Assembly: GCA_000004985.1 (NCBI GenBank)
Contig: GG738857.1
Reading direction: 5' to 3' (one strand)
DNA: 64,000 bases
Source of the DNA: Naegleria gruberi
Taxonomy: Eukaryota
The position numbers were made by a program, and so were the translations under genes. Under the pieces are notes generated by a model. It was not told the DNA's origin. It did not search any database and saw nothing but the letters and a program-made list of their open reading frames with translations. Shown piece after piece: positions 4,778-64,000 of this stretch. The first letter of the stretch is position 1, and each line of letters starts with the position of its first letter.

Positions 4778-5233
4778 ATTTTACAACACATTCAACATTC
4801 AAATAAATCTGTCAATATTATTTGTGATGAATCATCAATGTGCAAATTTGAGCAAAACGATCAGTAATACCGCGTGCAACATTCTTTACTAATATTTTCA
4901 CACTTTACAATTAACAGCTACCAAAAGAGGCAAGCTTTACAACAAGTATTTAACATTATGTTTGATTTGACTTGATTCAACAGGAGTATCCTTCATAAAT
5001 GGTCTTCGTTAGTCTTGCATATCGTTATACCTGCATTATGAGTGTTAGATTCCCACTGTAATGAAGGTTAAATTTCACTCCAGCAACTTCCTCAACCGCA
5101 AGCTTTTAATAGCCACTTTTAACCTTCTTGTAACCTAGCAAGAAATCTTCAAATACTTCACTTTTAAACCACAGCTTAAAAAAATCAACAACAATCTTCA
5201 TCATCCAATTAATTTATTATTACTTATTACAAA

Positions 5234-7600
5234 ATGTCCCACTCCTCTCTTATTGGTTCATCTGTTGAATTTTTGCAAGCTTTGGAACAAGTTGGAAAAC
5301 AAGCTGGCACCGAATCATCATCGTCCTATGTTGCTCAAGAAAGATTTTTGGGTAGCAAGGATTTGATCAAAACAAGATTCGGGGATGATAAAAGTGCCTT
5401 GGAAAGAGTTGTTGTAGATTTGATGGATTCATCAAAGACTCCACTCATCAGAGATCAACGTATTGGTGTCAAATTGGCAATCCACCAACAAGTTAATAAG
5501 AGTGGTTTGAGAGCCTTGTTATTGGCTGATCAATCGAGAACCTTGAGTGATTTGATTGCTGCTCACGTTCATCAAGTATTTACTAATGAAGAATTATTGA
5601 ATTTATTTGATGATGAAAATTTAAGTGAACACACAAGAGTGAGAGTAGAAAAGACTATTCGTAATGAATGCAAGAATTTGATTCTTGATGTTGTTAAGAA
5701 GATTATTGGAAAGGTTAAACCTTCGGAATGTGTTGTTTTACTTTCTCATTTGCCATCATCGACACCAAGTGAAGCAATTTTGGAACTTTTGAATGAATTA
5801 AAACTTGAAACTCTCGAAGGATCAGTAATTGTTAGAAAGCATCCAGAAGTTGTTGCCAAGTTTATTAGACAAGAATTGGATAAGACTATCAAGGGAGCTG
5901 TTCCACAAGTTTCATTGTGGAATCTCTTGATTGCTACCTTGAATGAACTTTCATCGGTTTTCAACACATTGAGCAAGGTTAATCCAACACTTGCCTTTGC
6001 CATCATTGATGAATACTTTGTACAATATGCTCTCAAGGAAGATATTCCAGTTGATGCTGTTCAATCCTACTTGTTGCTCAAGGTTAAAAACTTCCCAGAA
6101 ACCTTCAAGTCATGCATCAATTCCAAATCCAAGATTCAACTCAACGTTTCACAACTTTTGAAAATGTTCTCCATCGAAGATGTTGCTGGAATTTATTTGA
6201 AGAAGCTTGAAACTTTAAATTATGCTACTTCACCAGAATCAAGTGCCTTTTTGAGATCATTCGAAGTTTACGATAACAGAGATGCCAAGAAGGTTGTCAT
6301 TCTCATTAGCAAGTTGGTTGCTAAGGGTGCTACTGTTGAAAAGTTGAGTGATTGGATCTTTAGAAATGTTCAACCATCAACTGATATTCCAAGCTTTTTG
6401 AAATACTTCCCACTCCCTGTTATCCACAGTGTCGCTACCAAATTGTACGAAGTTAGAAAGTTGAAAGACTTTTCCACTCCAGATCAAGAATCCAGATATT
6501 GGAGATATATGAATATGGTTGAAGAAGAAGCTTCCTATAAGAAATTTAAAGGATCTTGCTCAAATTCTAATTCCAATGTCAGACTCAATGTTTTACTTGA
6601 CTTGTTCTTCTGTTCTCTCTTGCACAATAAGAGAGTTAAGGAAACTTTGGAATTTATGGATTCTCGTTTGAAGAATGATGTCGAATCAATTCCTACTGTC
6701 ATTTCAACCCTTTCTAGTGATATCTTCTTTGCTACAAAAATCTTTTCTCTTTACAAGAATGAAGAATATAGAGAAGCTTTACACACTCTCTTGGAAAATA
6801 CTGCCAAAAAGTCAGAGGCTCCATGGTACTACAGAAACTTCTTCTCATCAGTCTTCCGTTATTATAAGGATGATATTACAGTTCTCAAGTTCCTCATTGA
6901 GAAAACTTCCAATTTTGCCAAGTTTAACGATATGGGCTTTATTGGTCTCTATGGTGTTACCTTGAAGCCAGAAATTCACAAGGTTGTCTCTGAAATTCTC
7001 TTCCAATCTATGATAAACAAAATTGAATCTGAAGGAAATCCTCAAATATTGAGAGATGTATTGAACTTGGGAAGATACAAGAAACAACCAAAACACGTTA
7101 AAGAATTATACCAAAAGTTCTTCGACGAATGGATTCCACTCATTTTCAAGAAGGATCCTTACATTGGTTCAGTAAATGATATTGCTAATGGTGCATTCAA
7201 AGGTATTGAAAAGAAGGAAGCCATCGAATTGGTGAAAAAGGTATTGGCCTATGAAGCTGCTTTCATCATGTGTGATAGAGTTCAAAAATTATTGCTCTCC
7301 CGTACCACCAACTTGGAAACTGATTTCATCTTCAAATTTATCAGGGAAAAGGCCTTGACTGGTGCTGAATTGCAAGCTCTCTCTTCTAGTGGTTTTATTC
7401 ATAGTGATTATGTTGCCGCAATCCTTCCTCAATATTTGGGAAGCTTGAGACTTGAAGAATTTGCTTCTCCAGAACTTACCAGAAGACTCATCAGTACCTA
7501 TGAAAACTTGTTGTTCAGATGTGGAAGAGTTAACCCTATTAGTTTCTGCTCAACATATGTTTCTAATACCAGTATTTGCAAGATTATGATCAAGACATGA
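5234..7600 (+). CDS. Large alpha-helical (ARM/HEAT-like) repeat protein, N-terminal 788 aa. The gene probably continues across the 609-N gap
   Basis: Uninterrupted 2.4-kb ORF with repeated amphipathic helical segments. No catalytic motif was recognised. The ORF ends 18 bp before the N-run. A frame change and a possible GTATTT donor at about 7572 suggest splicing into sequence hidden by the gap. Confidence 0.55.
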   Translation: MSHSSLIGSSVEFLQALEQVGKQAGTESSSSYVAQERFLGSKDLIKTRFGDDKSALERVVVDLMDSSKTPLIRDQRIGVKLAIHQQVNKSGLRALLLADQSRTLSDLIAAHVHQVFTNEELLNLFDDENLSEHTRVRVEKTIRNECKNLILDVVKKIIGKVKPSECVVLLSHLPSSTPSEAILELLNELKLETLEGSVIVRKHPEVVAKFIRQELDKTIKGAVPQVSLWNLLIATLNELSSVFNTLSKVNPTLAFAIIDEYFVQYALKEDIPVDAVQSYLLLKVKNFPETFKSCINSKSKIQLNVSQLLKMFSIEDVAGIYLKKLETLNYATSPESSAFLRSFEVYDNRDAKKVVILISKLVAKGATVEKLSDWIFRNVQPSTDIPSFLKYFPLPVIHSVATKLYEVRKLKDFSTPDQESRYWRYMNMVEEEASYKKFKGSCSNSNSNVRLNVLLDLFFCSLLHNKRVKETLEFMDSRLKNDVESIPTVISTLSSDIFFATKIFSLYKNEEYREALHTLLENTAKKSEAPWYYRNFFSSVFRYYKDDITVLKFLIEKTSNFAKFNDMGFIGLYGVTLKPEIHKVVSEILFQSMINKIESEGNPQILRDVLNLGRYKKQPKHVKELYQKFFDEWIPLIFKKDPYIGSVNDIANGAFKGIEKKEAIELVKKVLAYEAAFIMCDRVQKLLLSRTTNLETDFIFKFIREKALTGAELQALSSSGFIHSDYVAAILPQYLGSLRLEEFASPELTRRLISTYENLLFRCGRVNPISFCSTYVSNTSICKIMIKT

Positions 7601-7617
7601 GAAAGCTTGCTGTGAAC

Positions 7618-8226
7618 NNNNNNNNNNNNNNNNNNNNNNNNNNNNNNNNNNNNNNNNNNNNNNNNNNNNNNNNNNNNNNNNNNNNNNNNNNNNNNNNNNN
7701 NNNNNNNNNNNNNNNNNNNNNNNNNNNNNNNNNNNNNNNNNNNNNNNNNNNNNNNNNNNNNNNNNNNNNNNNNNNNNNNNNNNNNNNNNNNNNNNNNNNN
7801 NNNNNNNNNNNNNNNNNNNNNNNNNNNNNNNNNNNNNNNNNNNNNNNNNNNNNNNNNNNNNNNNNNNNNNNNNNNNNNNNNNNNNNNNNNNNNNNNNNNN
7901 NNNNNNNNNNNNNNNNNNNNNNNNNNNNNNNNNNNNNNNNNNNNNNNNNNNNNNNNNNNNNNNNNNNNNNNNNNNNNNNNNNNNNNNNNNNNNNNNNNNN
8001 NNNNNNNNNNNNNNNNNNNNNNNNNNNNNNNNNNNNNNNNNNNNNNNNNNNNNNNNNNNNNNNNNNNNNNNNNNNNNNNNNNNNNNNNNNNNNNNNNNNN
8101 NNNNNNNNNNNNNNNNNNNNNNNNNNNNNNNNNNNNNNNNNNNNNNNNNNNNNNNNNNNNNNNNNNNNNNNNNNNNNNNNNNNNNNNNNNNNNNNNNNNN
8201 NNNNNNNNNNNNNNNNNNNNNNNNNN
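7618..8226. other. Assembly gap (609 N)
   Basis: Run of n characters. ORFs reported across it are artefacts. Confidence 1.
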
Positions 8227-8267
8227 TCAGCATTAATTGAATTTTTGGAACTAAATTCCTTCCAAAG

Positions 8268-9788
8268 AATGCCAAGAAGGATGAAGAAAAAGTTGAACAA
8301 GATGAAGAAGAAGATGTTGAAGAAGATGATGAACAAGAACCTGTAGAAGCTGGAGAAGAAACTGTCAAGATGGATGTTGAAGATAATGCCACCAGATGCT
8401 TGGCCTCCCTCGTCAGAATTTACTCTCAAAACCCAGTTGAACATTTGCAATATGTTTTAGAAAATATCAGCTCTGAAAACGTCTTGTACTACTTCTCTGC
8501 TATTGGTAGAATTTCAACCTTCTACAATGATGTCAAATTCATTGATGCTTACTGTGCCATTTTGAAGAAGCAATTCACTGAAGTTCTCACTTCCAAACAA
8601 CCTCTTCCAACCAATATGAGCATTGCTGTTCAAAAGATGTTAATTTCCAGACTCAAGGCCTACGTTCAACATTTGAATAGTGAAATTCCAAGTAAGATTG
8701 TTGATACTCTCGTTCAAATTTGGGATTTGAAACCACAAAAGGATGTTCAAGTTGCAATTTTGAGCACCATCTTGTTGGCTATTAAGAATGATAGAACTGA
8801 TCAACTCTACAATAAGGCCAAGAGTATTTTGGAACAAGCTACTACTCATGAATATGAAGATATTGTTCTTGCATTGGCTGGATTTGGTCCAACTAAGAAT
8901 GTTACTACCATGAGAGAAATCTTCTCCTTGAGATTGAAGACTCTTGAACATCCAACTTCCAAGATTCAAACCTCTGCATGGTCAACTGTTTCCAGCTCTG
9001 CAACCACACCTTCCTTCATTAAGAGAGTTGCTTCAGAAAGTTTCAATCCTATTGCCTTGTTCAGAAAGTACATTGTTGATGCTGTTCTCACTTTTAATCC
9101 ACAACAACAACACAATATTGCCAACGTTGCCATTGATGTCTTGCTTAAGGAAATTATTCAAACTCCAGAAGAAGCTGGTTCAATTTTACTTGACAGTATT
9201 TTGGTTCCTCTCTTGACTGAAGAAAAATACCAAAAACTCGATAGAGAAACTTACAATGCTGATATTACTTGGGATAGACCTGTTAAGGCTCGTTTGGCCC
9301 ATATTGTCAATTCTCTTTCTACAAAGGTTGCATCTACTTACTTGCTCATTTCAGACAGCAATAAGCAAACTATTCAATCAAAGATTGTTTTACCACTTGT
9401 TGAAGTTGTTAAGAAGCACGTTCAAAATCGTCTTCCATATGTCTGCATTGTTTCATCAATTAATACTAACTGGAATGATGTTGACTCTGTTGTTCAAAAC
9501 TCAATCAAGAATGTTGCCGATTTATTAAGTGATGTTGAAGAACCATTGAAGACCCTCATTTTGTCCAAGATTGTTAATCACTCACATCAAATTACTCTCA
9601 ATAGATCCAATGTCAATGTTCTCCTTGATGCAGTTGCAAAGGTTTTGAATAATGCCAGTGAATTCTCTCAAACTGAACAAATTATTGCTACAGGAATTTT
9701 GATGAGTCTTGGAACTGCTGATGACAAGACAAGAGAATTGAAGAAGATTGCCAGAAAGAGTAATGTTCTCAATTTGTTGACTGAATAA
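8268..9788 (+). CDS. C-terminal portion of an alpha-helical repeat protein (acidic linker then helical repeats). Probably the same gene as 5234..7600
   Basis: The frame is open from 8241. A candidate acceptor ttccttccaaag| lies at 8267. An acidic stretch (KDEEKVEQDEEEDVEEDDEQEP) is followed by 470 aa of helical repeats to TAA at 9786-9788. Same strand and similar composition to the upstream ORF. Confidence 0.5.
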   Translation, partial: NAKKDEEKVEQDEEEDVEEDDEQEPVEAGEETVKMDVEDNATRCLASLVRIYSQNPVEHLQYVLENISSENVLYYFSAIGRISTFYNDVKFIDAYCAILKKQFTEVLTSKQPLPTNMSIAVQKMLISRLKAYVQHLNSEIPSKIVDTLVQIWDLKPQKDVQVAILSTILLAIKNDRTDQLYNKAKSILEQATTHEYEDIVLALAGFGPTKNVTTMREIFSLRLKTLEHPTSKIQTSAWSTVSSSATTPSFIKRVASESFNPIALFRKYIVDAVLTFNPQQQHNIANVAIDVLLKEIIQTPEEAGSILLDSILVPLLTEEKYQKLDRETYNADITWDRPVKARLAHIVNSLSTKVASTYLLISDSNKQTIQSKIVLPLVEVVKKHVQNRLPYVCIVSSINTNWNDVDSVVQNSIKNVADLLSDVEEPLKTLILSKIVNHSHQITLNRSNVNVLLDAVAKVLNNASEFSQTEQIIATGILMSLGTADDKTRELKKIARKSNVLNLLTE

Positions 9789-10493: not shown

Positions 10494-12647
10494 TCACAGA
10501 TCTATCAACCAGGTTTGGTGTTTGTTTTTTTTGAGTTTTCTGTTTTCCTCTTCCAATATTTTAATTCTTTCCGAAAGTTTGTCAACATCCTCTAATATTT
10601 TAATTCGTTCCAGTAAAGAGTTCTCCTCCAATAGGTTAATTCTTTCTAATAGGTTGGTATTTTCATCAGAAAGTTTATCAACTTCCTCTGCAAGTTGAGA
10701 GTAGCTCCTTAATGGTGAGATTTTCTTCAATTCTCCAATTTCCTTTTCAATATTCAAAGTGATATCTTTGATTTCACCTTTCAAAAATTTCAAAATATTC
10801 TCAATGGTTAACTTGTGAGAATAACAATTCAATCTTTTTGATGAATCTCTTTGAATCATGCTAATAATGCTTCTAATCAATATGTTATTCACTCCTAAAT
10901 CTGGATTAATCGTTTCATTGATTAGTTTTTCAATTGCATAATGTAATTTCATTTCTCCCTCTGTTGTTGTTACAACTGTATAGAAATATTTTCCATGTCC
11001 ACTAAAATATGGATACTTGTCATTATATTTAGAGATATCTGAATCATTAACAAATCTTTCACACAATTGCAAAGGACAATTTGTTAATAATTTCAATAAA
11101 ATACATCCCAATGAAAATATATCACACGAAATGGTAATTTGTCCAACATTGTGAGCAAGTTTTTCATCATCACCACTTTTCAATAAATCATCAGAATAAT
11201 TATCATGTGAAACTTCAGGAGACATGTATGCAAACTTTCCACGAGCAATTGTAATTGAATTACCTGTCTTGATAACTCTTGATGTTTCAAAATCAATAAT
11301 TTTGTAATGATCTTGAACTTTGACAATATTTTGAGGATCTAAATCTCTGTGCAAAATGTTGTGATCATGAATTGACTGAACTGATTTCAATACTTTGATA
11401 AATATTTCAAGAATTTCAATCAACTTTTCCTTCTTAATGAATCCATTTCTATAAATTTCACTTTCATTATTTCTTGAAATGTAATTTGATAATGATTCCT
11501 CTCCAAGTTCCATCACTGAATATAAATGATTTTGAATAATTTCACAATCAAAACATTTGATCTTTCCTTCAATATCTGTTCTTTTCAATAAATTAATGGT
11601 TTCTTTTGTTGATTCTTCAGATTCCTCTGGATCATATTTTAATTTTAATGCCCTTAATGATTTGCTACTTTTGTGAAATACTTTGAATGCAACACCTTCA
11701 CCTCCATATCCTAACAATGAAATAAAATCATAATTATTTTTGAAATAATTATAGAAATAATTGAGAGCTTTGAATACTTTTGATAAATCTCCTCTCAGCT
11801 CATTATATTTACACAAGGTTTGTTTGTAATTTTCAAATGTTTGCTCATTTTCAAACCACTTGTTGGCAAAATTCATAATTTCAGTAATTTCCTGTTTTGT
11901 ATAAAATGATGTTTCGAAATTTGTTGCAACTTGTTCCACAATATTCTTCAAATCTTTCATTCTTGTTGATTGACAGGGATTATCTTCAAGATATTTGTCC
12001 AATCTGAAACAAAATAAATAATAATTGACTCTTTCTGGAAGAAGAGTTTCAGTGGATAATTCTGAATGGTTCATTCGTTTCAATATTTGGAAAATAATCA
12101 ACTTTTCAACAAATACTGGTGTATAGATAGAATTAAAATTGAATATTGTACCTTTTGGTGTTGGATTAAAGAGACTTGTTAATTCAATAGCATAATATAA
12201 ATCCTTTTCATTCATAAATATTTTGGAGTATTGTTCAATTATATTAGTTGACAGCTTTGTCTGAAGATTAATGGATTCTTCAATTGTTTTGGTTATAGAG
12301 GGTGAGAACCTTCTTGCATTTACCTTGCTAAATTTAATTAATAAATAAATAAATATACTATCTTCTTTCAATGATGAATCAGCATATTGAAGTGCCTTTC
12401 CATGTTGTTTAACAGATTCCAATACAAATTCTCTGTTTTTCCTCAATGATGAATCTGCATATTTAAAAGCATATCCATTTTGTTTGACAGATTCCAACAC
12501 AATTTCTCTATCTTTTTTCAATGATGAATCAGCATATTCAAGTGCATTTCCATTTTTTTTAACAGCCTCCAATATAATTTCTCTATCTTTTTTCAATGAT
12601 GAATCAGCATATTGAAGTTCCAATCCATTTTTTTTAACAGCATCCAA
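10494..12647 (-). CDS. Protein kinase with N-terminal DUF4116 repeats (four or more) and a C-terminal coiled coil. The 5-prime exon is probably missing from this model
   Basis: Repeats match the DUF4116 pattern (ALEYADSSLKKDREIVLESVKQNG). The kinase motifs are GYGGEGVAFKV, ALKLK, HRDLDPQN, DFE replacing DFG, and YMSPEV. The C-terminal heptads (LSERIKILEEENRKLKK) are repeated. The reading frame stays open upstream to a TAG at 12662, immediately 3-prime of a possible acceptor (aatag|GCC GAT AGG AAA TTT GTA TTG GAT = ADRKFVLD, another DUF4116 half-repeat). The first in-frame codon is TTG, not ATG. Confidence 0.8.
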   Translation of the reverse strand: MDAVKKNGLELQYADSSLKKDREIILEAVKKNGNALEYADSSLKKDREIVLESVKQNGYAFKYADSSLRKNREFVLESVKQHGKALQYADSSLKEDSIFIYLLIKFSKVNARRFSPSITKTIEESINLQTKLSTNIIEQYSKIFMNEKDLYYAIELTSLFNPTPKGTIFNFNSIYTPVFVEKLIIFQILKRMNHSELSTETLLPERVNYYLFCFRLDKYLEDNPCQSTRMKDLKNIVEQVATNFETSFYTKQEITEIMNFANKWFENEQTFENYKQTLCKYNELRGDLSKVFKALNYFYNYFKNNYDFISLLGYGGEGVAFKVFHKSSKSLRALKLKYDPEESEESTKETINLLKRTDIEGKIKCFDCEIIQNHLYSVMELGEESLSNYISRNNESEIYRNGFIKKEKLIEILEIFIKVLKSVQSIHDHNILHRDLDPQNIVKVQDHYKIIDFETSRVIKTGNSITIARGKFAYMSPEVSHDNYSDDLLKSGDDEKLAHNVGQITISCDIFSLGCILLKLLTNCPLQLCERFVNDSDISKYNDKYPYFSGHGKYFYTVVTTTEGEMKLHYAIEKLINETINPDLGVNNILIRSIISMIQRDSSKRLNCYSHKLTIENILKFLKGEIKDITLNIEKEIGELKKISPLRSYSQLAEEVDKLSDENTNLLERINLLEENSLLERIKILEDVDKLSERIKILEEENRKLKKNKHQTWLIDL

Positions 12648-13050
12648 TACAAATTTCCTATCGGCCTATTGTTGTAGTCATCCATCACACGTTAATAAAA
12701 TCCCATCACAAAACACAAACCCAATCTTCGCCAAACATTTTTTTTAAAGTATAATAATTATAATAATTATTATAATTATTGACATTTAATTCCTTCTCGA
12801 TATATTATAATAATACCGATCACTTTCTAATTAAATTTTGATTTAAGGTCCTATCCACAAAAGACCTATATTCCGATCATTCATTTTCTTTTTGGACTAT
12901 TGCTAATACATGCATTTTTGTATGATAAAAGAGGGTCTACTTGTCTTACATTTTTTTAATTTAAATTTAAAAAGAATTTGAAAAATTAAGTAAGCGTTTT
13001 TTATTTGAAAGATTTTTTACCTTAATTTTGAACTTGTACTACAAATGTGC

Positions 13051-38129: not shown

Positions 38130-41100
38130 TTAATTACCAATCATTTCAAGAATGCTTTGAGCAGTTACAACTGTGCAATGTGGATTCTCCTTGATATATT
38201 TCCTAGTGAGAGTTGTTTCTTGATCTTCAATTTCATCATGATCAATCTCTGCCAATTGATTTTCACTATTTACAATAATCATATCCAAAGACTTGATTTC
38301 ATTAGTAATAATTCCTCCGTTCAAAGCTATAGATCCTTTCAACTTTCTATTATTCTTATTTTCCATTCCAAATAGATAGATTTTCATGCCTTCTAGAGGG
38401 TCATCCTTAGCAGAATCTTCTGCTGCTTGTTGCTTTTGAGCTGGAGAAGCTGATACGGTTCTTGTTGGCGTGTTTGCAGCTCTTGTTGGAGTTGATGTAG
38501 GAGCTTTACTATTAGATTTTGTTGGTGTTGAACTTGTTGAGCTTTTGTGTTGTTGAGTTTGTGGTTGCTTATTCCAATTAGAATAAGACCCACTTCTATC
38601 AAAGTAATATATATATGTTTTGACTTTGGCTTTCAATAGGCATTTCTAATAAAATATTATTGTAAATTAATTAAAATGTAAAGAGCAAACAAACCTTAAT
38701 AATTCTTTCAGTTGAATACCAATCAAAACCTTGAATTCCAAATCCAATTCTAGGCATGTGCACTGTAGCATCCATTGTGACAGCAGAGTAACAGACTTTT
38801 GCTAGGGCAATCTCTAGAGCACTATTAATAATTGGACCGTGACCCTTTGATTTCTCATAGTGTTGAGCAATTACATTTACAATATAGGTTGATCCCTTCT
38901 TACTCTTTACAGGAGTGAGTTGAGCCTCACCGACTGAGATAAGATCCTGTTCACAAGCATTTTCATAAATTAGCTTGATTTTCTTCCCGTACTTGCTGGT
39001 AATATGTTTAGAAATACCAGCATTTGGAAATTGTCCAAAATCTGAAATAACACTGTTGAAATTGTTATCTTGTTTGTGAATAAAAATACTTACTTGACAA
39101 TAAATCTAGTACCTGAGTGTTCATATTTTTCAGGTTGAGTAACATCTCCTTTCACATATTGAATAGTATTACTGTCGGAAGTGATTGGAGAGAATGGTTC
39201 ATCATCTTCTTCCTTGTTGAATTGTTTTTCCATTAGATAAAGGTCCAATTCCCAATCATCAGGTATTTCAATCAAATGTGGATCAAATTCATCATACTCA
39301 GATTCCTCATCTTCATCATCACTAGTTTTAATCTTTCTTCTCTTGGTTGTTGCATTTCTTTTGGAACCTCTTGTTCTGGTTGAAATAGGTGAAATGTATC
39401 CATCATCGTCTTCATCATCTGAAGGAGATAATATGAGAGATTCGTCCTTTTCAACTTCTTTCTTCTTTGGTTTCTTCTTTGGAGCTGCCTTCTTTTTCTT
39501 AGATTTAGTATGGTGATCTGTTTTTTGAGAACATAGATCAATGCCAGCATCTCCCAACAAGTTTTGTAATGCCTCCACATCCTTTGAAGATGAAGTTGTC
39601 TTTGGTCGATAGTCAATTCCGTCGTACATGTAAATGGATCCAGATTCAACATCTTGTAAACTCTCCGCAGCACTTTCTAAAGATAAACTCAATCTCTTAG
39701 GTCCCTTCTTGGCTAATAATTCATCAATGGTGATACCAAGAAGCTTTTCATCTGATTCTTCAGCACTGACGTCAGAGGTAGAGTCCATAATTTTGTGTAA
39801 TCCAAATGAAATCATTTCCATAATAGTATCGGAAGAGAGTTTTTCATCAGAGCTTGAATCAAATGCATTCGAAACGGCAGATGATGTATCAATAGTATTG
39901 ATGGATAGAGCAATCTTTTTCATTGATCTTTTCAAGATTACTTCTTCTACTGAGCTTTCAGTGACCAATCTGTAAACTGTTACTGGCTTATCTTGACCTA
40001 TTCTGTGACATCTGGCCTGAGCTTGTAAATCCATTTGAGGATTCATATCCATATCCATAAAAATAACTGTATCCGCACTGGTCAAGTTCAAACCAACACC
40101 TCCTGCTCTAGTGGAGAGCAAAAAGACAAACACATCCTTATCTGTGAAACTCTTAATTGCTTCAAATCTTTCCTCTCCTCTGACAGAACCGTCGAGTCGT
40201 TCATAATTCCACTTTCTGAAAGAAAAGTAGTCCTGTAAAATGTCCAACATTTGAGTCATTTGAGAGAAGATCAAAACCTTGTGCCCTTCTTGTTTGAGCT
40301 TTTTCAATAGTTTGTCTAAAATAATCATTTTACCACTGTTATTCACAATATGTTCACCTTCAACAAATGGTTCTTCTTCTGCTCCTTCAAACATATAGGG
40401 GTGATCACAACATTTACGTAAACTCATTAGGACATTGCTGAGACCTCTAGAATTCTTCTTACCAATAGCATTTCTATCAGCCATGAGGAAACCCTTGTAG
40501 AATTTCTTTTGTAAAGTTGTCAACCTAGTATAGATGATGTGTTCTTCCTTTGGAGGAAGATCATTCTTGAGAACTTGATTCTTTGTTCTTCTAAGAAGGA
40601 ATGGCTTGAGAACAATTTGGAAATTATTCCTCACAGAATCAGCATCCACATCCTCAACATTTTCATCAATATCTTCTTCAATATCTACACTCTCAGAGAT
40701 GGATTTCTTCAAAGTTGATTTGGAGAGGAAACATTGCTGAGGGAACCAGCTGTCAAATGTTTCGAATAAATGATCAAAGTAAGTTGGAGCACAGAAATAT
40801 AGGAGAGCCCACAGTTCTTTTGTATTGTTCATTAATGGAGTACCACTCATGAGAATGACTCTTTCATACTTGTAGATTTGTTGGAGGGCCTTGTAAAGGA
40901 TTGAATTTGGATTTTTCAGTCTGTGAGCTTCATCCACACAAAGACATTTATATTCGAAACCAGAAAGAAAACTTTCATCATTTGTTACTGTTTCATATGA
41001 TGTAACAATAACATCATATGGAAATTCTCCACTCTCCGCAAACTCCTCATTCAAAGTATCTTGCAATTCTGCACGTTCTTCTTGATTTCCATGATATCTC

Positions 41101-41823
41101 AACACACGAACAGAATTTCCACAAAATTTGTTAAATTCCAAACACCAATTTTCAATCAATGACAATGGCGAAACAATTAGAAATGGTTTCCTTGAACTTT
41201 CCTTGTCAGTACTTTCCATCCAATAACAGAAAAAACTAATCACCTCCAAAGTCTATATTATTACACGATCGTATTCACTCCAAAATTTTGATTACTTACT
41301 TTACCAAGACCCTATTTAAATAGTTGATCAATTAGTTTAAATTTCCAATTTAGAATAAGAAGAAACATACCATATCGTCACCTAATATTCCACCATGCGT
41401 CTTGTTATCCAACAATAAACTCTTCAACCAAGAAACAGCTTGCCACTGATGATTCTTCAATTTACACGAATTCAACAAGTATTTTGATGAAGGATTCGGC
41501 AACTGATCAACATCTCTCATCTCATTCAAACACTCACAATCAATTTGCAATGATTTAATTCTATTCAAAAATACATTAAAATCCAGCGTTTTGTTTTTTG
41601 GTTTTTGCAATTTTAATTTACTCAAATCCTTCTTCTTCTTTTTATTCCGATGATCATGATTGTGGTCATCATCATCATGATCGGAATCTGAAAGAGGCGG
41701 AGGTGAGTCATCTTCATCTTCTATATCTGAAAATTCTTCTTCCGATTGATGATCAACTCGTGGTTGTCTTGTTTCTTCTTCATCTTCATCAACAATGATG
41801 GAATCTTTTTTACGTTTGGACAT
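38130..41823 (-). CDS. ALC1/CHD1L-like chromatin remodeler: SNF2-family ATPase, then a TARG1-like macro domain, then a BRCT-like C-terminus. Five exons: 41823..41371, 41311..41300, 41252..39094, 39052..38695, 38645..38130
   Basis: Exon 1 carries the Q motif HQWQAVSWL...GGILGDDM|GTATGT. The 12-nt micro-exon GGTCTTGGTAAA (GLGK) lies between atttaaatag| and |GTAAGT. Exon 3 reads TLEVISFFCYWM...PFLIVSPLSLIENW...DEAHRLKN and the helicase-C motifs ([43 protein letters not shown]). A 41-nt intron GTAAGT...TTTCAACAG leads to the macro exon (YIVNVIAQHYEKSKGHGPI...VHMPRIGFGIQGFDW, compare TARG1 SMPRIGCGLDRLQW). A 49-nt intron GTTTGT...TTATTAG leads to the BRCT-like exon (KIYLFGMENKNNRKLKGSIALNGGII...TVVTAQSILEMI). 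All splice phases are consistent. Confidence 0.8.
41300..41311 (-). other. 12-nt micro-exon encoding G-L-G-K (the Walker-A/motif I lysine) of the SNF2 ATPase
   Basis: GGTCTTGGTAAA is flanked by acceptor ...atttaaatAG and donor GTAAGTaatc. Upstream exon 1 ends GGILGDDM. The downstream exon starts TLEVISFF. Together these reconstitute GGILGDDMGLGKTLEVISF. Confidence 0.65.
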
Positions 41824-55140: not shown

Positions 55141-55594
55141 ATTGCAAAAAGTGAAGTAACTTTGCCAAAATCAAGATATAGATGCTATTTTGTAGTTTGG
55201 GCAAAATACTTCTCAATACGGATCACGGAATGTCAAGAGCTCATTCTTACAACACGATAATTCATTATAACTGCATGTTTGTTATTAAGATCCTTCCACC
55301 ACCACGATTATTAATATTACAACTGTGATGGTAATTGTTCCGATGATGCTTTACCAACATGAATTTTTCCTAAGAGAGGTGCAAGAAAGGCCTCTCAACA
55401 AGCGCATTTTACGTTCCCAGAGACAAAGCCAACGGAACCCTAGTGAGTAACATGATGATTCATTACTGGATGTGTGCTATTAAGCTATCACTGTAAATCG
55501 ATTATTACCACCACGATTATTTCTATGAAGCTTCAAAATCCTATTTTTTGCTTCCACTAGTGTTTGTTTCGCTTGCCAACCAAAACCTTAAAAA

Positions 55595-57063
55595 ATGTTA
55601 ACACGTTATTGCAACACCAGTAGCTATTCAACATGGTTAGTATTAGGGATGCTTGTTGCCTTTCTAATCGTCTTGCAACATTGTTCATCCAATGTTGATG
55701 GAGCAGCAACTTCAAATGGTACACTAAGGGAATGGCTCACCTCTTTGCAAAATGAAGCAGCTTCATTAGAACGCTCAGCTTTACAATTGGAAATGGCGAT
55801 TGCTTTGTTGACTAAGGCAAATTCAACAAGTACATCCCTTAGAGCTTCTCAACTTGCAAAGATTAGAAAGTCTATTGCCTTACTTGCAAGTGAAATTCAA
55901 ATCATCAACGAAACATGCTCTACATACACTGGTCAAAACTGTGATAATGCCGTCTGTAATTCAAAGTGTTTGAGCTGTTTTTCTAATAATAATTGTATCC
56001 AGTGTACTGGAAATTGGGATGGAAAAGAATGCTCAATTTGTAAAACTGGATGGGGTGGCTCTGATTGCAACACTCCAGTATGTGATTCTAAATGTAGTAT
56101 GTGCTCATCGCCAGGAGTTTGTTCTGCTTGCTATGGTAACTGGAATGGTGTTACTTGTTCAACATGTAATTTAGGATGGACTGGTGTTGATTGTAATACA
56201 CCAATTTGTGAAGTCAAGTGTAAGAACTGCTCTGCACCAGGTCAATGTTTAACATGTTCAGGTAATGGAATGGAAATGATTGTTCAACTTGCAAATCAGG
56301 ATGGACTGGTATTGATTGTAACACACCTATTTGCGATTCAAAATGTGTGAATTGTACTTTACCTGGTCAATGTAGTACATGTATTGGTAATTGGAATGGA
56401 ACATCTTGTTCAACATGCAGAATTGGCTGGAATGGAACTAATTGTACCACACCAGTATGTGATTCTAAATGTGCTAATTGTACATCACCAGGAGTTTGTT
56501 CTGTTTGCTCTGGAAACTGGAATGGAACAACTTGCTCTACTTGTAAGACTGGTTGGACAGGTTCTGATTGTAATACACCAATTTGTGACGCCAAATGTAC
56601 AACATGTGCCTCACCAGGTGTTTGTTTTGTATGTTCAGGAAACTGGAATGGAGCTACTTGTTCAACATGTAAAACTGGTTGGTCAGGTACCAGTTGTGCA
56701 ACACCAATTTGTGATGCCAAATGTACAACTTGTGCCTCACCAGGTGTTTGTTCTGTATGTTCTGGTAATTATGATGGTGCAACATGTTCCACTTGTAAAT
56801 CAGGATGGGGTGGCTCAACATGTTCAGTCTCGACAACATATACCATTTATGCTGGTGCTGACAATTCGTACACTCTCTACCATAATGGTGTTGCTATTCT
56901 GTCAGGAAGCACTTGGAGTTCTCCTCAAACAACTACAAGAGTATTGAATAGTGGTGATATTTTGATATCTAAAGGTTATGATTCTGATGGAATGGGAGGA
57001 CTCGTGGTTGAAGTTTACAACTCAAACAATGATTATTCAACTGGTAGAGTTACATGGTATTGA
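55595..57063 (+). pseudogene. Secreted tenascin-type EGF-repeat protein (about 12 near-identical 31-aa repeats) with a C-terminal non-repeat domain. A 1-bp frameshift lies at about 56268. Otherwise a continuous CDS
   Basis: Signal peptide LVLGMLVAFLIVLQHC. Repeats follow the pattern NTPxCDxKCxxCxSPGVCSxCxGNWNGxTCSTCKTGWTGSDC. At 56262-56275 the sequence ggtaatggaatgg replaces the ggtaattggaatgg found in every other repeat, which splits the ORF into 55595..56350 and 56347..57063. TGA at 57061-57063 lies directly before a 49-N gap. Confidence 0.65.
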
Positions 57064-61516: not shown

Positions 61517-62285
61517 GGAAGAAATCTTTAAATATGAATGTGAAAATAAACTTGATATTCTATCTCTACACATCGAATGGAGCATTTTCATGTATAATTT
61601 GTTGATTGAAGTGATATATTTGATAGACTTGGTCTTGACTTGTGTTTCCTTTCAGTCAACTTTGGAAAATAAACATTTACATTCCCATTGTACCATTTCT
61701 AATTCTTATGATATGAAATTGAATTCTATATCACTATAGATCATATAAATCATTTTGGTAAAGTTTCAATAGGTGGTCCTTTTTCAAGATTTCCGTCCTT
61801 ATCATACAAGTGGACCATGTGTGGTTGAGGGAAGAAATCTTTAAATATGAAAGTTAAAATAAATTTGATATTCGATGTTTACTCATCAAATGGAACATTT
61901 TCATGTCAGGATTCAATATGTTTTGATGAGAAACTCAAAAGTTATAGTTGACCTCTTTTACCTCACAACTTCCCTTTTCACTTGATACTTTTATATCTAC
62001 AGACTTGAAATTTTGAAATTTCATATGAGAGTGATTATAAATGTTGTTAATGATGATATAGACTATATAATCTCATTAAAGGATTTTGAAATTATTATCC
62101 TTCCTATGGTTTCATTTTACAAATTTTTAATCTTACATTATTTACAATGTTAATATTTTATAAATTGAAAAACTAAATATAATACATTATTCTACTCATC
62201 ATTTACAATCGAATGATATAATATTCAATAATTTGGGCTAGGGTTTGATCTTTGAAACATTGGGTCTGGACTTAAATATTTTTCA

Positions 62286-62699
62286 GGTTTTAGGTTTGGG
62301 TTTAGGTTTGGGTTTTTAGGTTTGGGTTTGGGTTTGGGTTTGGGTTTGGGTTTGGGTTGGGTTTGGGTTTGGGTTTGGGTTTGGGTTTGGGTTTGGGTTT
62401 GGGTTTGGGTTTGGGTTTGGGTTTGGGTTTGGGTTTGGGTTTGGGTTTGGGTTTGGGTTTGGGTTTGGGTTTGGGTTTGGGTTTGGGTTTGGGTTTGGGT
62501 TTGGGTTTGGGTTTGGGTTTGGGTTTGGGTTTGGGTTTGGGTTTGGGTTTGGGTTTGGGTTTGGGTTTGGGTTTGGGTTTGGGTTTGGGTTTGGGTTTGG
62601 GTTTGGGTTTGGGTTTGGGTTTGGGTTTGGGTTTGGGTTTGGGTTTGGGTTTGGGTTTGGGTTTGGGTTTGGGTTTGGGTTTGGGTTTGGGTTTGGGTT
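62286..62699 (+). repeat. Telomere-like hexamer microsatellite (TTTGGG)n. It is imperfect at its 5-prime end (ggttttaggtttgggtttaggtttgggttttt) and then perfect for more than 60 units. It runs directly into a 50-N gap
   Basis: Direct read of the sequence. A second short copy starts at 63262 (gggctagggtttgaaggttgggtttgg). All ORFs predicted inside it (poly-GL, poly-PK, poly-TQ and similar) are artefacts. Confidence 0.9.
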
Positions 62700-62749
62700 N
62701 NNNNNNNNNNNNNNNNNNNNNNNNNNNNNNNNNNNNNNNNNNNNNNNNN
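62700..62749. other. Assembly gap (50 N) placed inside the hexamer array
   Basis: n-run. The true array length is unknown. Confidence 1.
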
Positions 62750-64000
62750 CATGTTGGTAAAGTTTCAATAGGTGGTCCTTTTTCAAGAGATTTCATCCTT
62801 TTGTCATAGTTGACCATGATGGTTGAGGGAAGAAATCTTTAAATATGAAAGTGAAAATAAATTTGATATTCGATGTTTACTCATCAAATGGAACATTTTC
62901 ATATTAGGATTCAATATGTTTTGATGAGAAACTCAAAAGTTATAGGTGACCTCTTTTACCTCACATCTTCCCTTTTCACTCGATACTTTTATATCTACAG
63001 ACTTGTAATATTGAAATTTTATATCAAACTGATTATGAATGTTGTTAATGACGATATAAATTATATAATCTCATTAAAGGATTTTGAAATTCTCATTCTT
63101 CCTATAGTTTCATTTTAGAAATTTTAATCTGACACTATTTACAAAGTTAATATTTTATAAATTGAAAAACTAAATATACCACGTTGTTCTACTCATACTT
63201 TCCAATCGAATGATATAAAATTTAATGATATATGAAGAAGTTTATAATTTTGGGCTAGGGTTTGAAGGTTGGGTTTGGAAACGTGTTGTTTTGATTTGTT
63301 TCTTCTGTGGCTCCATGGTCTTTATGATCTGATATAGGGTTATTAAGCGCCGTTTGGGTATTTTGTTGGTTTTTTTAGTAAAGTTTTAAAAAAAGTATAT
63401 AGTTCTTATCTAGTTATCGAGTTGTGGTGTAAATGTCTTGTTTTCAAGCTATTCGAAAGTAGTAACGATTTCGATATTCCGTTAGTTTGCGTCACTTTGC
63501 GGACGGACTTATATTCAATCAATTTGGTTGTCATTCATATTGATGCGTAGAATTTTTGAGAGTATTTTTGAATGTACGTTATTTTTATCTACGCATGAAT
63601 GAAAAGTACAACAATGATCAAGAGGAATTGAGTCATGAGTATGATACTTTCTCAGATTGTTCTACGCATCAAGAGTATTCGATTCAGGATTCTATTCATA
63701 TATGATATTTGTTATACATATATTGAATTGAATGAGCTGGAGTGCCATCTTGTTGTTAAAAGTTGAGTCGACATTAAGGTATTCAGTAAATTGATACCAC
63801 ATGACTAATTAGAGTGATTATACGTCATTATATCAATTTATTTGAAAACAGACTTGCTTTTGGACCTTTCAGATTTCTAGCCACATATGACAGATCACCA
63901 AGTACTATCTACTGGATGCATTTCTTGAAATAAAAGTATATAATTTGAATAAAGTCCACTTTATTTGAGATGTACTACATGATAATAAAGTTTATTTTGA

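What the first reader, a model, noticed from the sequence alone, without database searches (positions are those of the whole stretch)
10494..12647. DUF4116-repeat kinase with a DFE (not DFG) motif, a coiled-coil tail and an unannotated 5-prime exon
Four or more tandem DUF4116 repeats (ALEYADSSLKKDREIVLESVKQNG) precede a kinase domain whose Mg-binding motif is DFE. The first in-frame codon of the ORF is TTG. The open frame continues upstream as ADRKFVLDAVKK, another DUF4116 half-repeat, until a TAG that coincides with a candidate acceptor (aatAG|GCC). The real start is therefore probably in an upstream exon within 12662..13050. The C-terminal heptad repeats with a reiterated ERIKILE unit suggest oligomerisation.
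Basis: partly seen in the sequence, partly recalled or inferred. Interest (0 to 1): 0.5.

Follow-up and report, generated by a model that had tools for sequence, protein, structure and literature searches.

The report
Mis-annotated Naegleria DUF4116 kinase gene
This is a gene of the amoeba Naegleria gruberi for a repeat-plus-kinase protein whose public model is cut short because an 18-base first exon and a 55-base intron were missed; it is a useful annotation fix in an uncharacterised lineage-specific kinase family, not a new kind of system.

Summary
The window is Naegleria gruberi. The minus-strand ORF 10494..12665 is locus NAEGRDRAFT_65349. Its public model (573 aa) starts at an internal ATG (12215) and drops all the DUF4116 repeats.

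I propose this model: exon 1 at 12738..12721 (MFGEDW), a 55-nt phase-0 GT-AG intron at 12720..12666, and exon 2 at 12665..10494, giving 729 aa. The evidence is:
- No ATG lies in the first 150 open codons.
- The spliced N-terminus matches three paralogs (MNINEW|ADRKYVL, MNKNEW|ADRKYVL, MSEDW|ADRTYVL).
- A N. lovaniensis homolog has the same structure: a mini-exon ending in TGG, then a 47-nt phase-0 intron, then NDREYVL. Its spliced CDS reproduces the deposited protein exactly.
- A neighbouring gene in the window needs 41- and 49-nt introns, one with the same GTTTGT donor.

The protein has about 4.5 DUF4116 helical units, a helical domain with no solved relative, a TTK/Mps1-like kinase domain and a 68-residue C-terminal helix. 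DF[E/D] occurs in all but a few kinase domains of the family examined, while HRDLD (Lys to Asp) is confined to the N. gruberi paralogs. The core catalytic residues are kept, so I read it as an atypical active kinase, which is unproven. No RNA evidence was reachable. Interest is low to moderate.

The parts
12721..12738 (-). Proposed exon 1 (coding part): ATGTTTGGCGAAGATTGG = MFGEDW, preceded by an A-rich context (aaaaaaaATG).
   Evidence: The spliced N-terminus matches paralogs P0001, P0003, P0005 and the N. lovaniensis protein P0122. Shuffle test: 35/20000.
12666..12720 (-). Proposed 55-nt phase-0 spliceosomal intron: GTTTGT donor, TTATTAAC branch-like site 27 nt before the 3' AG, and AATAG acceptor whose TAG is the in-frame stop that closes the ORF upstream.
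   Evidence: The intron position is conserved in N. lovaniensis (47-nt intron). The same GTTTGT donor and in-frame TAG acceptor occur in a 49-nt intron of a neighbouring gene.
10494..12665 (-). Exon 2: 723 codons plus the TGA stop (10494..10496). With exon 1 it gives a 729-aa protein.
   Evidence: It is colinear over its full length with N. gruberi paralogs at 83-86% identity.
12324..12665 (-). DUF4116 repeat region: about 4.5 units of 25 aa (two Pfam units of 49 aa), modelled as stacked short helices (alpha-solenoid).
   Evidence: Pfam E=1.9e-42. TRF 75 bp x 4.1. AlphaFold2 pLDDT is above 90 for residues 1-100.
11733..12323 (-). Family-specific helical middle domain (ORF residues about 115-311). 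It has no Pfam family and no solved structural relative.
12213..12215 (-). Internal ATG used as the start by the public model NAEGRDRAFT_65349 (EFC46895.1, 573 aa). In paralogs this Met lies inside the conserved motif SKIFMDEKDLYY.
10776..11732 (-). Protein kinase domain (ORF residues 312-630), closest to TTK/Mps1.
   Evidence: Pfam Pkinase E=1.5e-24. Best solved relative is TTK at E=8e-13. Foldseek gives a generic kinase fold.
11328..11351 (-). Catalytic loop HRDLDPQN, with Asp in place of the usual Lys of HRDLKPxN.
   Evidence: Alignment to TTK HSDLKPAN. Conserved in all N. gruberi paralogs examined except P0125 (HRDLKLAN).
11286..11294 (-). DFE in place of DFG. The metal-binding Asp is kept and the Gly is replaced by Glu.
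   Evidence: Alignment to TTK DFG. DF[E/D] is found in all but a few kinase domains of the family examined, including in distant members.
10500..10703 (-). C-terminal long helix and putative coiled coil (ORF residues 655-722) carrying ERINLLE, ERIKILE and ERIKILE.
   Evidence: AlphaFold2 models a single helix 655-722. Occupancy of heptad positions a/d is 0.5-0.75. Weak bZIP/HALZ/LED_rpt Pfam hits.

Best explanation
The locus is a two-exon N. gruberi gene (NAEGRDRAFT_65349). An 18-nt coding mini-exon (MFGEDW, 12738..12721) is spliced across a 55-nt phase-0 GT-AG intron (12720..12666) to the long ORF (12665..10494), giving a 729-aa protein. The public 573-aa model starts at an internal Met and is truncated.

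The protein belongs to a Naegleria-restricted family that is expanded and partly tandemly clustered. From N- to C-terminus it has:
- a Trp-containing N-terminal cap;
- about 4.5 DUF4116 helical repeats forming a short alpha-solenoid (inferred: a protein-binding or regulatory module);
- a family-specific helical domain;
- a TTK/Mps1-like kinase domain;
- a 68-residue helix (inferred: a dimerising coiled coil).

The kinase keeps the Gly-rich loop, the beta-3 Lys, the HRD Asp, the catalytic-loop Asn, the DFG Asp and the APE Glu. It carries two acidic substitutions next to the phosphate site: DFG to DFE, and HRDLK to HRDLD.

I therefore read it as an atypical but active Ser/Thr kinase, probably activated by coiled-coil-mediated dimerisation and trans-autophosphorylation of its long, poorly ordered activation segment.

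Shown: the domain content, the motif states, the gene-model logic and the conserved intron position. Inferred: that splicing occurs in vivo, catalytic activity, dimerisation, and the role of the repeats.
For: Organism and locus.

Upstream coding: no ATG lies in the first 150 open codons, yet that stretch encodes intact DUF4116 repeats and a linker conserved with paralogs.

Spliced model: coordinates and product are. It is the only one of 26 models that reproduces the paralog N-termini. The chance rate is 35/20000.

Intron: it is at the same position and phase in N. lovaniensis C9374_005323, and that spliced CDS equals the deposited protein. Short introns of 41 and 49 nt, one with a GTTTGT donor, are needed to make a single 999-aa SNF2/Helicase_C/Macro ORF in the same window.

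Kinase: Pfam; the TTK alignment shows DFE aligned to DFG and HRDLD aligned to HSDLK; invariant catalytic residues across 16 family members.

Motif survey.

Family breadth: only 11 representatives have E<=1e-30 among 1.84 billion proteins, and the next hits include Mps1-type kinases (P0131 is so named; P0138 resembles it).

Structure.
Against: - No transcript evidence was available. The exact spliced protein is not in the 15-billion-protein collection.
- N. gruberi paralog DNA could not be fetched, so I could not see whether the closest paralogs carry the intron.
- A more distant Logan contig (L001) has the EW|GT mini-exon, but an in-frame TAA follows the only in-frame acceptor.
- An Asp at the catalytic-loop Lys position and a Glu at the DFG Gly are both close to the gamma-phosphate and could abolish phosphotransfer. 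One paralog domain (P0011) has NFN, showing that decay does occur in the family.
- The heptad pattern of the tail is only moderate and changes register.
Confidence: 0.75

Rival explanations
1. The public annotation is right. Translation starts at the internal ATG (12215) and gives a 573-aa protein without DUF4116 repeats. The open frame upstream would be 5' UTR or a decaying relic of repeats.
For: This is the deposited model (EFC46895.1 / XP_002679639.1). The ATG at 12215 is the first ATG in the open frame.
Against: - The 150 codons upstream have no stop in DNA of about 30% G+C, and they score E=1.9e-42 for DUF4116.
- The annotated Met sits inside a motif that is internal in every paralog (SKIFMDEKDLYY).
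- A splice model restores the family's N-terminus.
Confidence: 0.07
2. The copy is a 5'-damaged pseudogene. On this reading the 55 nt between TGG and GCC are an insertion that is not spliced, so the repeats have lost their start codon.
For: The annotators did not find the first exon here, although they gave full N-termini to three paralogs. The copy has few repeats (about 4.5, against more than 20 in P0001).
Against: - The 723-codon ORF is fully intact and 83-86% identical to paralogs.
- The 55 nt start with GTTTGT, end with AG, lie in phase 0 and carry a branch-like TTATTAAC.
- An intron sits at exactly this position in N. lovaniensis.
- No second copy of the 55-nt element is present in the window.
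Confidence: 0.07
3. The gene model is as proposed, but the kinase domain is a pseudokinase. It would be a nucleotide-binding or purely scaffolding module whose DFE and HRDLD changes have abolished phosphotransfer. The protein would then act as a dimeric adaptor through its DUF4116 solenoid and coiled coil.
For: Two acidic substitutions sit at positions that normally contact the gamma-phosphate or allow the DFG flip. The change of the catalytic-loop Lys to Asp is fixed in the whole N. gruberi expansion. One family domain has further decayed to NFN.
Against: - The three residues usually used to call pseudokinases (beta-3 Lys, HRD Asp, DFG Asp), plus the Gly-rich loop, the catalytic Asn and the APE Glu, are invariant or nearly so across 16 members down to 29% identity.
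- Relatives with DF[E/D] still have the canonical catalytic-loop Lys (P0103, P0122, P0125).
- From memory, not tested here: haspin is active although it departs from the consensus at both of these positions.
Confidence: 0.3

Closest known systems
N. gruberi paralogs NAEGRDRAFT_65328 (P0003), 65330 (P0001), 65322 (P0005) and the 'TTK family protein kinase' EFC38917.1 (P0121)
   Same: They share the order DUF4116 repeats, helical domain, kinase, coiled coil and are 83-91% identical. They have the same HRDLDPQN and DFE. The first three are on the same 573-kb scaffold. P0001, P0003 and P0005 have the same N-terminal M..[E/D]W-ADR.[Y/F]VL.
   Different: The number of DUF4116 units differs (about 4.5 here, more than 20 in P0001). 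The public model of this copy lacks the repeats entirely. This copy also has a 10-residue C-terminal extension (NKHQTWLIDL).
Naegleria lovaniensis C9374_005323 (KAG2382743.1, P0122)
   Same: It has a mini-exon ending in the Trp codon, a short phase-0 intron, and then xDR.[Y/F]VL of the first DUF4116 unit. It shares the helical domain and a TTK-like kinase with DFE.
   Different: It is only 33% identical. It has two tandem kinase modules: the first lacks the DFG Asp, and the second keeps the catalytic-loop Lys (HRDIKTSN). Its intron is 47 nt with a GTAAGT donor.
TTK/Mps1 dual-specificity kinases (e.g. PDB 3cek, 5ap3)
   Same: They are the best solved-structure match by sequence (E=8e-13). They share VME(C/L)G..(D/S)L after the hinge and a long insert before the conserved D(V/I)(W/F)SLGCIL. 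The next-best library hits outside the family include Mps1-type kinases: P0131 is so named and P0138 resembles it.
   Different: Mps1 has HSDLKPAN and DFG, where this protein has HRDLDPQN and DFE. Identity is about 25-30%, and the margin over PKR and CDK2 is small. There is no Mps1-type N-terminal region; DUF4116 repeats, a novel helical domain and a coiled coil are present instead. I found no evidence of orthology.
DUF4116 (Pfam PF13475) repeat proteins
   Same: It gives a strong Pfam match and has a 25-aa helical unit. The alpha-solenoid model agrees with a published contact-based model of the family (PMC8078820).
   Different: Most DUF4116 proteins found here are repeat-only proteins from metagenomes, candidate-phyla bacteria, Parachlamydiaceae and Legionella. 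Among the hits inspected, fusion to this kinase was seen only in Naegleria proteins, plus one Logan contig (P0103) of unknown organism.

Membership tests
Eukaryotic protein kinase superfamily (Pfam PF00069) | Profile match above the curated cut-off, and a kinase fold | tested here: met
   87.2 bits against a cut-off of 31.7. Foldseek gives probability 1.00 to CDK2, CDPK and TTK.
Eukaryotic protein kinase superfamily (Pfam PF00069) | Catalytic core residues: Gly-rich loop, beta-3 Lys, HRD Asp, catalytic Asn, DFG Asp, APE Glu | tested here: met
   G319/G324, K341, D441, N446, D458 and E484 are invariant or nearly invariant in 16 family members.
Eukaryotic protein kinase superfamily (Pfam PF00069) | Canonical Ser/Thr catalytic-loop Lys (HRDLKPxN) and DFG Gly | tested here: not met
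   The motifs are HRDLDPQN and DFE.
TTK/Mps1 kinase family | Kinase domain closer to Mps1 than to other kinase families | tested here: inconclusive
   TTK is the top solved hit (8e-13), but PKR (2e-10) and CDK2 (6e-9) are close behind. The top non-family library hits include Mps1-type kinases. No phylogeny was made.
TTK/Mps1 kinase family | Mps1-type architecture and canonical HxDLKPxN / DFG motifs | tested here: not met
   The N-terminus consists of DUF4116 repeats plus a novel helical domain. The motifs differ.
DUF4116 (PF13475) | Profile match above the cut-off, in tandem units | tested here: met
   143 bits against a cut-off of 24.9, two 49-residue units. A 75-bp DNA period x 4.1.
Naegleria DUF4116-kinase-coiled-coil family | Full-length colinearity, HRDLDPxN plus DF[E/D], and the N-terminal M..W-xDR.[Y/F]VL | tested here: met
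   The N-terminal motif is met only through the proposed splice.
U2-type GT-AG spliceosomal intron | GT...AG ends, correct phase, length typical for the organism, conserved position in a homolog | tested here: met
   55 nt, phase 0. Window control introns are 41 and 49 nt. The N. lovaniensis intron is 47 nt at the same codon boundary.
U2-type GT-AG spliceosomal intron | Removal from the mature mRNA | not testable with these tools
   No transcript data were reachable. N. gruberi RNA-seq exists under PRJEB23822 (PMC6142364).
Coiled-coil oligomerisation domain | Long helix with hydrophobic residues at heptad positions a/d | tested here: inconclusive
   A single helix 655-722. Occupancy of a/d is 0.5-0.75 with register shifts. 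The oligomeric state is not testable here.

The most novel reading that the evidence does not exclude
The acidic pair could mark a distinct catalytic variant of the protein-kinase fold. The pair is DF[E/D], found in all but a few kinase domains of the family examined, plus HRDLD, fixed in the N. gruberi expansion. Such a variant might have altered metal or nucleotide use, or substrate chemistry. It would be coupled to a DUF4116 solenoid and a previously undescribed helical domain acting as a sensor module. That would give the first functional handle on DUF4116.
Probability: 0.12. Interest if true: 0.5.

Novelty: new member of a known kind. Interest (0 to 1): 0.22.

Why it matters
The practical gain is a corrected gene model. 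The public protein (UniProt D2V909, 573 aa) lacks about 156 N-terminal residues, including every DUF4116 repeat, so domain-architecture surveys of the Naegleria kinome undercount this fusion.

The conserved mini-exon ending in a Trp codon, followed by a roughly 50-nt phase-0 intron, gives a simple rule for repairing other members of the family in Naegleria genomes.

Biologically, the family offers a natural series of active-site variants in an otherwise intact TTK-like kinase: DFG to DF[E/D], and HRDLK to HRDLD. It also provides one of the few contexts where DUF4116 is fused to a domain with an assayable activity. None of this would surprise a kinase or protist-genomics specialist.

Tried and rejected
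- Paralog DNA: I tried to fetch DNA of the N. gruberi paralogs and of the annotated model, to see whether they carry the intron. None is on record in the contig index.
- Exact look-ups: neither the spliced 729-aa protein nor the TTG-start 717-aa version is in the collection, so there is no assembled transcript product.
- Other copies in the window: tblastn finds only one copy of the gene.
- Mobile 'introner' idea: I searched for a second copy of the 55-nt intron. There is no other copy within 3 mismatches, and the intron RNA shows no unusual folding (z=0.22).
- Other splice models: I enumerated all in-frame GT-AG models (26 of them). The alternatives give N-termini unlike any family member. 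The 49-nt variant (donor at 12714) would insert Val-Cys after the Trp and is not supported by N. lovaniensis or by L001.
- L001: the Logan contig from SRR15442445 shows ATG...GAATGG|GTGAGC upstream of its ORF, but the only in-frame acceptor is followed by a TAA two codons later. I count it as partial support only.
- Literature: a search for DFE-type kinases found nothing. The N. gruberi genome paper is not held.
- Alternative genetic code (TAG as sense): rejected, because long ORFs across the window close normally under the standard code.
Full report
**What is there**

The window has about 33% G+C, and the closest proteins are all from Naegleria gruberi. The minus-strand ORF listed at 10494..12647 begins with a TTG. 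Its frame is open further upstream, reading ADRKFVLDAVKK, back to a TAG at 12668..12666. The first ATG in this open frame is codon 150, at 12215.

Pfam places DUF4116 at the very start of the open frame (E=1.9e-42, 143 bits, two 49-residue units from residue 2). It places a protein kinase domain at residues 312-532 (E=1.5e-24). Tandem Repeats Finder sees a 75-bp unit x 4.1 copies at 12358..12662 with no indels. At protein level this is three full 25-residue units and two partial ones.

**Identity and public annotation**

A 573-aa N. gruberi protein is 100% identical over 79% of the query (P0004). It is EFC46895.1 / XP_002679639.1 / UniProt D2V909, locus NAEGRDRAFT_65349. It starts at the internal ATG at 12215.

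In every paralog that Met lies inside a conserved internal motif, SKIFMDEKDLYY. The public model is therefore truncated and lacks all the DUF4116 repeats. In DNA of about 30% G+C, a stop-free run of 150 codons that still scores E=1.9e-42 for a repeat family is not expected of untranslated sequence. This last point is an inference.

**The missing first exon**

Just upstream lies aaaaaaaATGTTTGGCGAAGATTGG. It is followed by GTTTGTGTTTTGTGATGGGATTTTATTAACGTGTGATGGATGACTACAACAATAG and then GCCGATAGG. Splicing out these 55 nt (12720..12666) joins MFGEDW (12738..12721) in phase 0 to ADRKFVLDAVKK, giving a 729-aa protein.

I enumerated every in-frame ATG/GT/AG combination between the upstream gene's stop (13051) and the repeats, and found 26 models. 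Only this one gives an N-terminus like those of the annotated paralogs:
- P0001: MNINEW-ADRKYVL
- P0003: MNKNEW-ADRKYVL
- P0005: MSEDW-ADRTYVL

EDWADR is an exact six-residue match across the proposed junction. The pattern 'ATG, 1-8 sense codons, Asp/Glu, Trp, then GT' occurs in only 35 of 20000 dinucleotide-preserving shuffles of the 382-nt upstream region. That pattern was defined after seeing the paralogs, so the figure is indicative only.

**Comparative proof of the intron position**

N. gruberi paralog DNA could not be fetched. A more distant family member could be: Naegleria lovaniensis C9374_005323 (P0122, 33% identity).

Its 5' end reads aaaaaaaaATGTCTCAAAACTATTCCTGG | GTAAGT...(47 nt)...AAAAAG | AATGATCGGGAGTATGTGCTT. 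Joining the 21-nt exon to the rest translates exactly to the deposited protein MSQNYSW-NDREYVL.... This homolog therefore has the same structure as the one I propose for the window gene: a mini-exon ending in the Trp codon, a short phase-0 intron, then the first DUF4116 unit. Because the structure is shared with so distant a member, it is probably old in the family.

A Logan contig of unknown organism (L001, which encodes P0103) also has ATG...GAATGG|GTGAGC about 77 nt upstream of its ORF. However, the only in-frame acceptor there is followed by a TAA two codons later, so I count it as partial support only.

**Control introns in the same window**

The minus-strand gene at 41252..38130 becomes a single 999-aa ORF only if two introns are removed: a 41-nt intron (39093..39053, GTAAGT...CAACAG) and a 49-nt intron (38694..38646, GTTTGT...TTATTAG). 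The second is phase 0, and its acceptor TAG is the in-frame stop, exactly as in the kinase gene. The spliced product has SNF2, Helicase_C and Macro domains.

A 55-nt intron with a GTTTGT donor is therefore ordinary for this genome. The published average intron length for N. gruberi is 203 bp, with 1.7 exons per gene (PMC8296547).

**The protein**

An AlphaFold2 model built from a 16-sequence family alignment has mean pLDDT 78.7. It shows:
- stacked short helices for residues 1-120, with pLDDT above 90. This fits the alpha-solenoid proposed for DUF4116 in PMC8078820;
- a helical domain at about residues 180-310;
- a kinase fold at residues 312-630;
- one uninterrupted helix at residues 655-722.

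The tail carries ERINLLE, ERIKILE and ERIKILE. Hydrophobic occupancy of heptad positions a/d is 0.5-0.75, with register shifts. There are weak bZIP and leucine-zipper Pfam hits. A coiled coil is plausible, but oligomerisation is untested.

**The kinase**

The best solved relative by sequence is human TTK/Mps1 (E=8e-13), ahead of PKR (2e-10) and CDK2 (6e-9). In that alignment DFE lies on the DFG of TTK, and HRDLDPQN lies on HSDLKPAN.

Across 16 family members, the Gly-rich loop glycines, the beta-3 Lys (K341), the HRD Asp (D441), the catalytic Asn (N446), the DFG Asp (D458) and the APE Glu (E484) are invariant or nearly so.

The motif survey gave the following:
- Every close N. gruberi paralog has H[R/G]DLDPxN plus DF[E/D].
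- One paralog domain (in P0011) has decayed to NFN.
- More distant members keep the catalytic-loop Lys but still have an acidic residue after DF, or DL in P0124. These are N. lovaniensis P0122 (second domain) and P0124, N. gruberi P0125, and the Logan protein P0103.

The Gly-to-acid change is thus found in all but a few kinase domains of the family examined and probably old. The Lys-to-Asp change is confined to the N. gruberi expansion.

By the usual three-residue criterion (Lys, Asp, Asp) the domain would be called active. From memory, not tested here, haspin is an active kinase that departs from the consensus at both of these positions. I therefore favour an atypical active kinase, and I give the pseudokinase reading about 0.3.

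**Breadth of the family**

An exhaustive HMMER search used the helical domain plus the kinase, without the repeats and the tail. Among 1.84 billion representatives it found only 11 proteins with E<=1e-30. Those identified are all from Naegleria, apart from one Logan protein of unknown organism and a few metagenome fragments.

After those, the hits are ordinary kinases that match the kinase domain only. Two of the better-scoring ones were inspected: P0131 is annotated as Mps1 in Auxenochlorella, and P0138 is an Mps1-like chytrid kinase. One paralog is named 'TTK family protein kinase' in GenBank. I treat the family as TTK-like, not as Mps1 orthologs, because the architecture and the motifs differ and no phylogeny was made.

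**Verdict**

The new content is:
- the exact first exon and intron;
- the demonstration that the public model is truncated;
- the conserved intron position in N. lovaniensis;
- the additional HRDLD substitution;
- a family-specific helical domain with no known fold relative.

This is a sound annotation correction in an uncharacterised, lineage-restricted kinase family. It is a member of a known kind, and its interest is low to moderate. The decisive missing piece is a spliced read across 12721|12665.

Noticed in passing
window 38130..41252 (minus strand): A three-exon gene for a 999-aa SNF2 ATPase + Helicase_C + Macro-domain protein (an ALC1/CHD1L-like architecture) with a possibly BRCT-like C-terminus. 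It needs introns of 41 nt (39093..39053) and 49 nt (38694..38646). I used it as a splice-site control.
   Followed up: partly
window 62289..62750: A near-perfect (TTTGGG)n array of 68 units runs straight into a 50-N scaffold gap. The flanks at about 62000-62260 and 63010-63270 are near-duplicates of each other. This could be a telomere-like or subtelomeric element inside the scaffold, or possibly a scaffold mis-join.
   Followed up: no
window 55592..57063 (plus strand): A Cys-rich, EGF-like gene built from 125/126-bp tandem repeats. Around 56255-56350 the reading frame shifts because of small indels relative to the next repeat copy. This could be a frameshift or pseudogene, a sequencing error, or an unrecognised intron.
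   Followed up: no
window 7500..8450: This stretch is open in five to six reading frames at once, which suggests low-complexity sequence. It lies between the ORFs 5213..7600 and 8241..9788, which may belong to one gene.
   Followed up: no
homolog list, not in the window: Outside Naegleria, the strongest DUF4116 repeat hits are repeat-only proteins from metagenomes. They include bacteria that live in amoebae (Parachlamydiaceae, Legionella) and candidate-phyla bacteria (Saganbacteria, Pacebacteria). This hints at exchange of the repeat between amoebae and their bacteria.
   Followed up: no
L001 745..880 (Logan contig SRR15442445_159): A distant family member (P0103) has the conserved mini-exon ending in GAATGG|GTGAGC. 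An in-frame TAA follows two codons after the only in-frame acceptor. The called protein starts at an internal Met in the middle of a repeat, so its 5' end is also mis-modelled or damaged.
   Followed up: partly
[not shown]
   Followed up: partly
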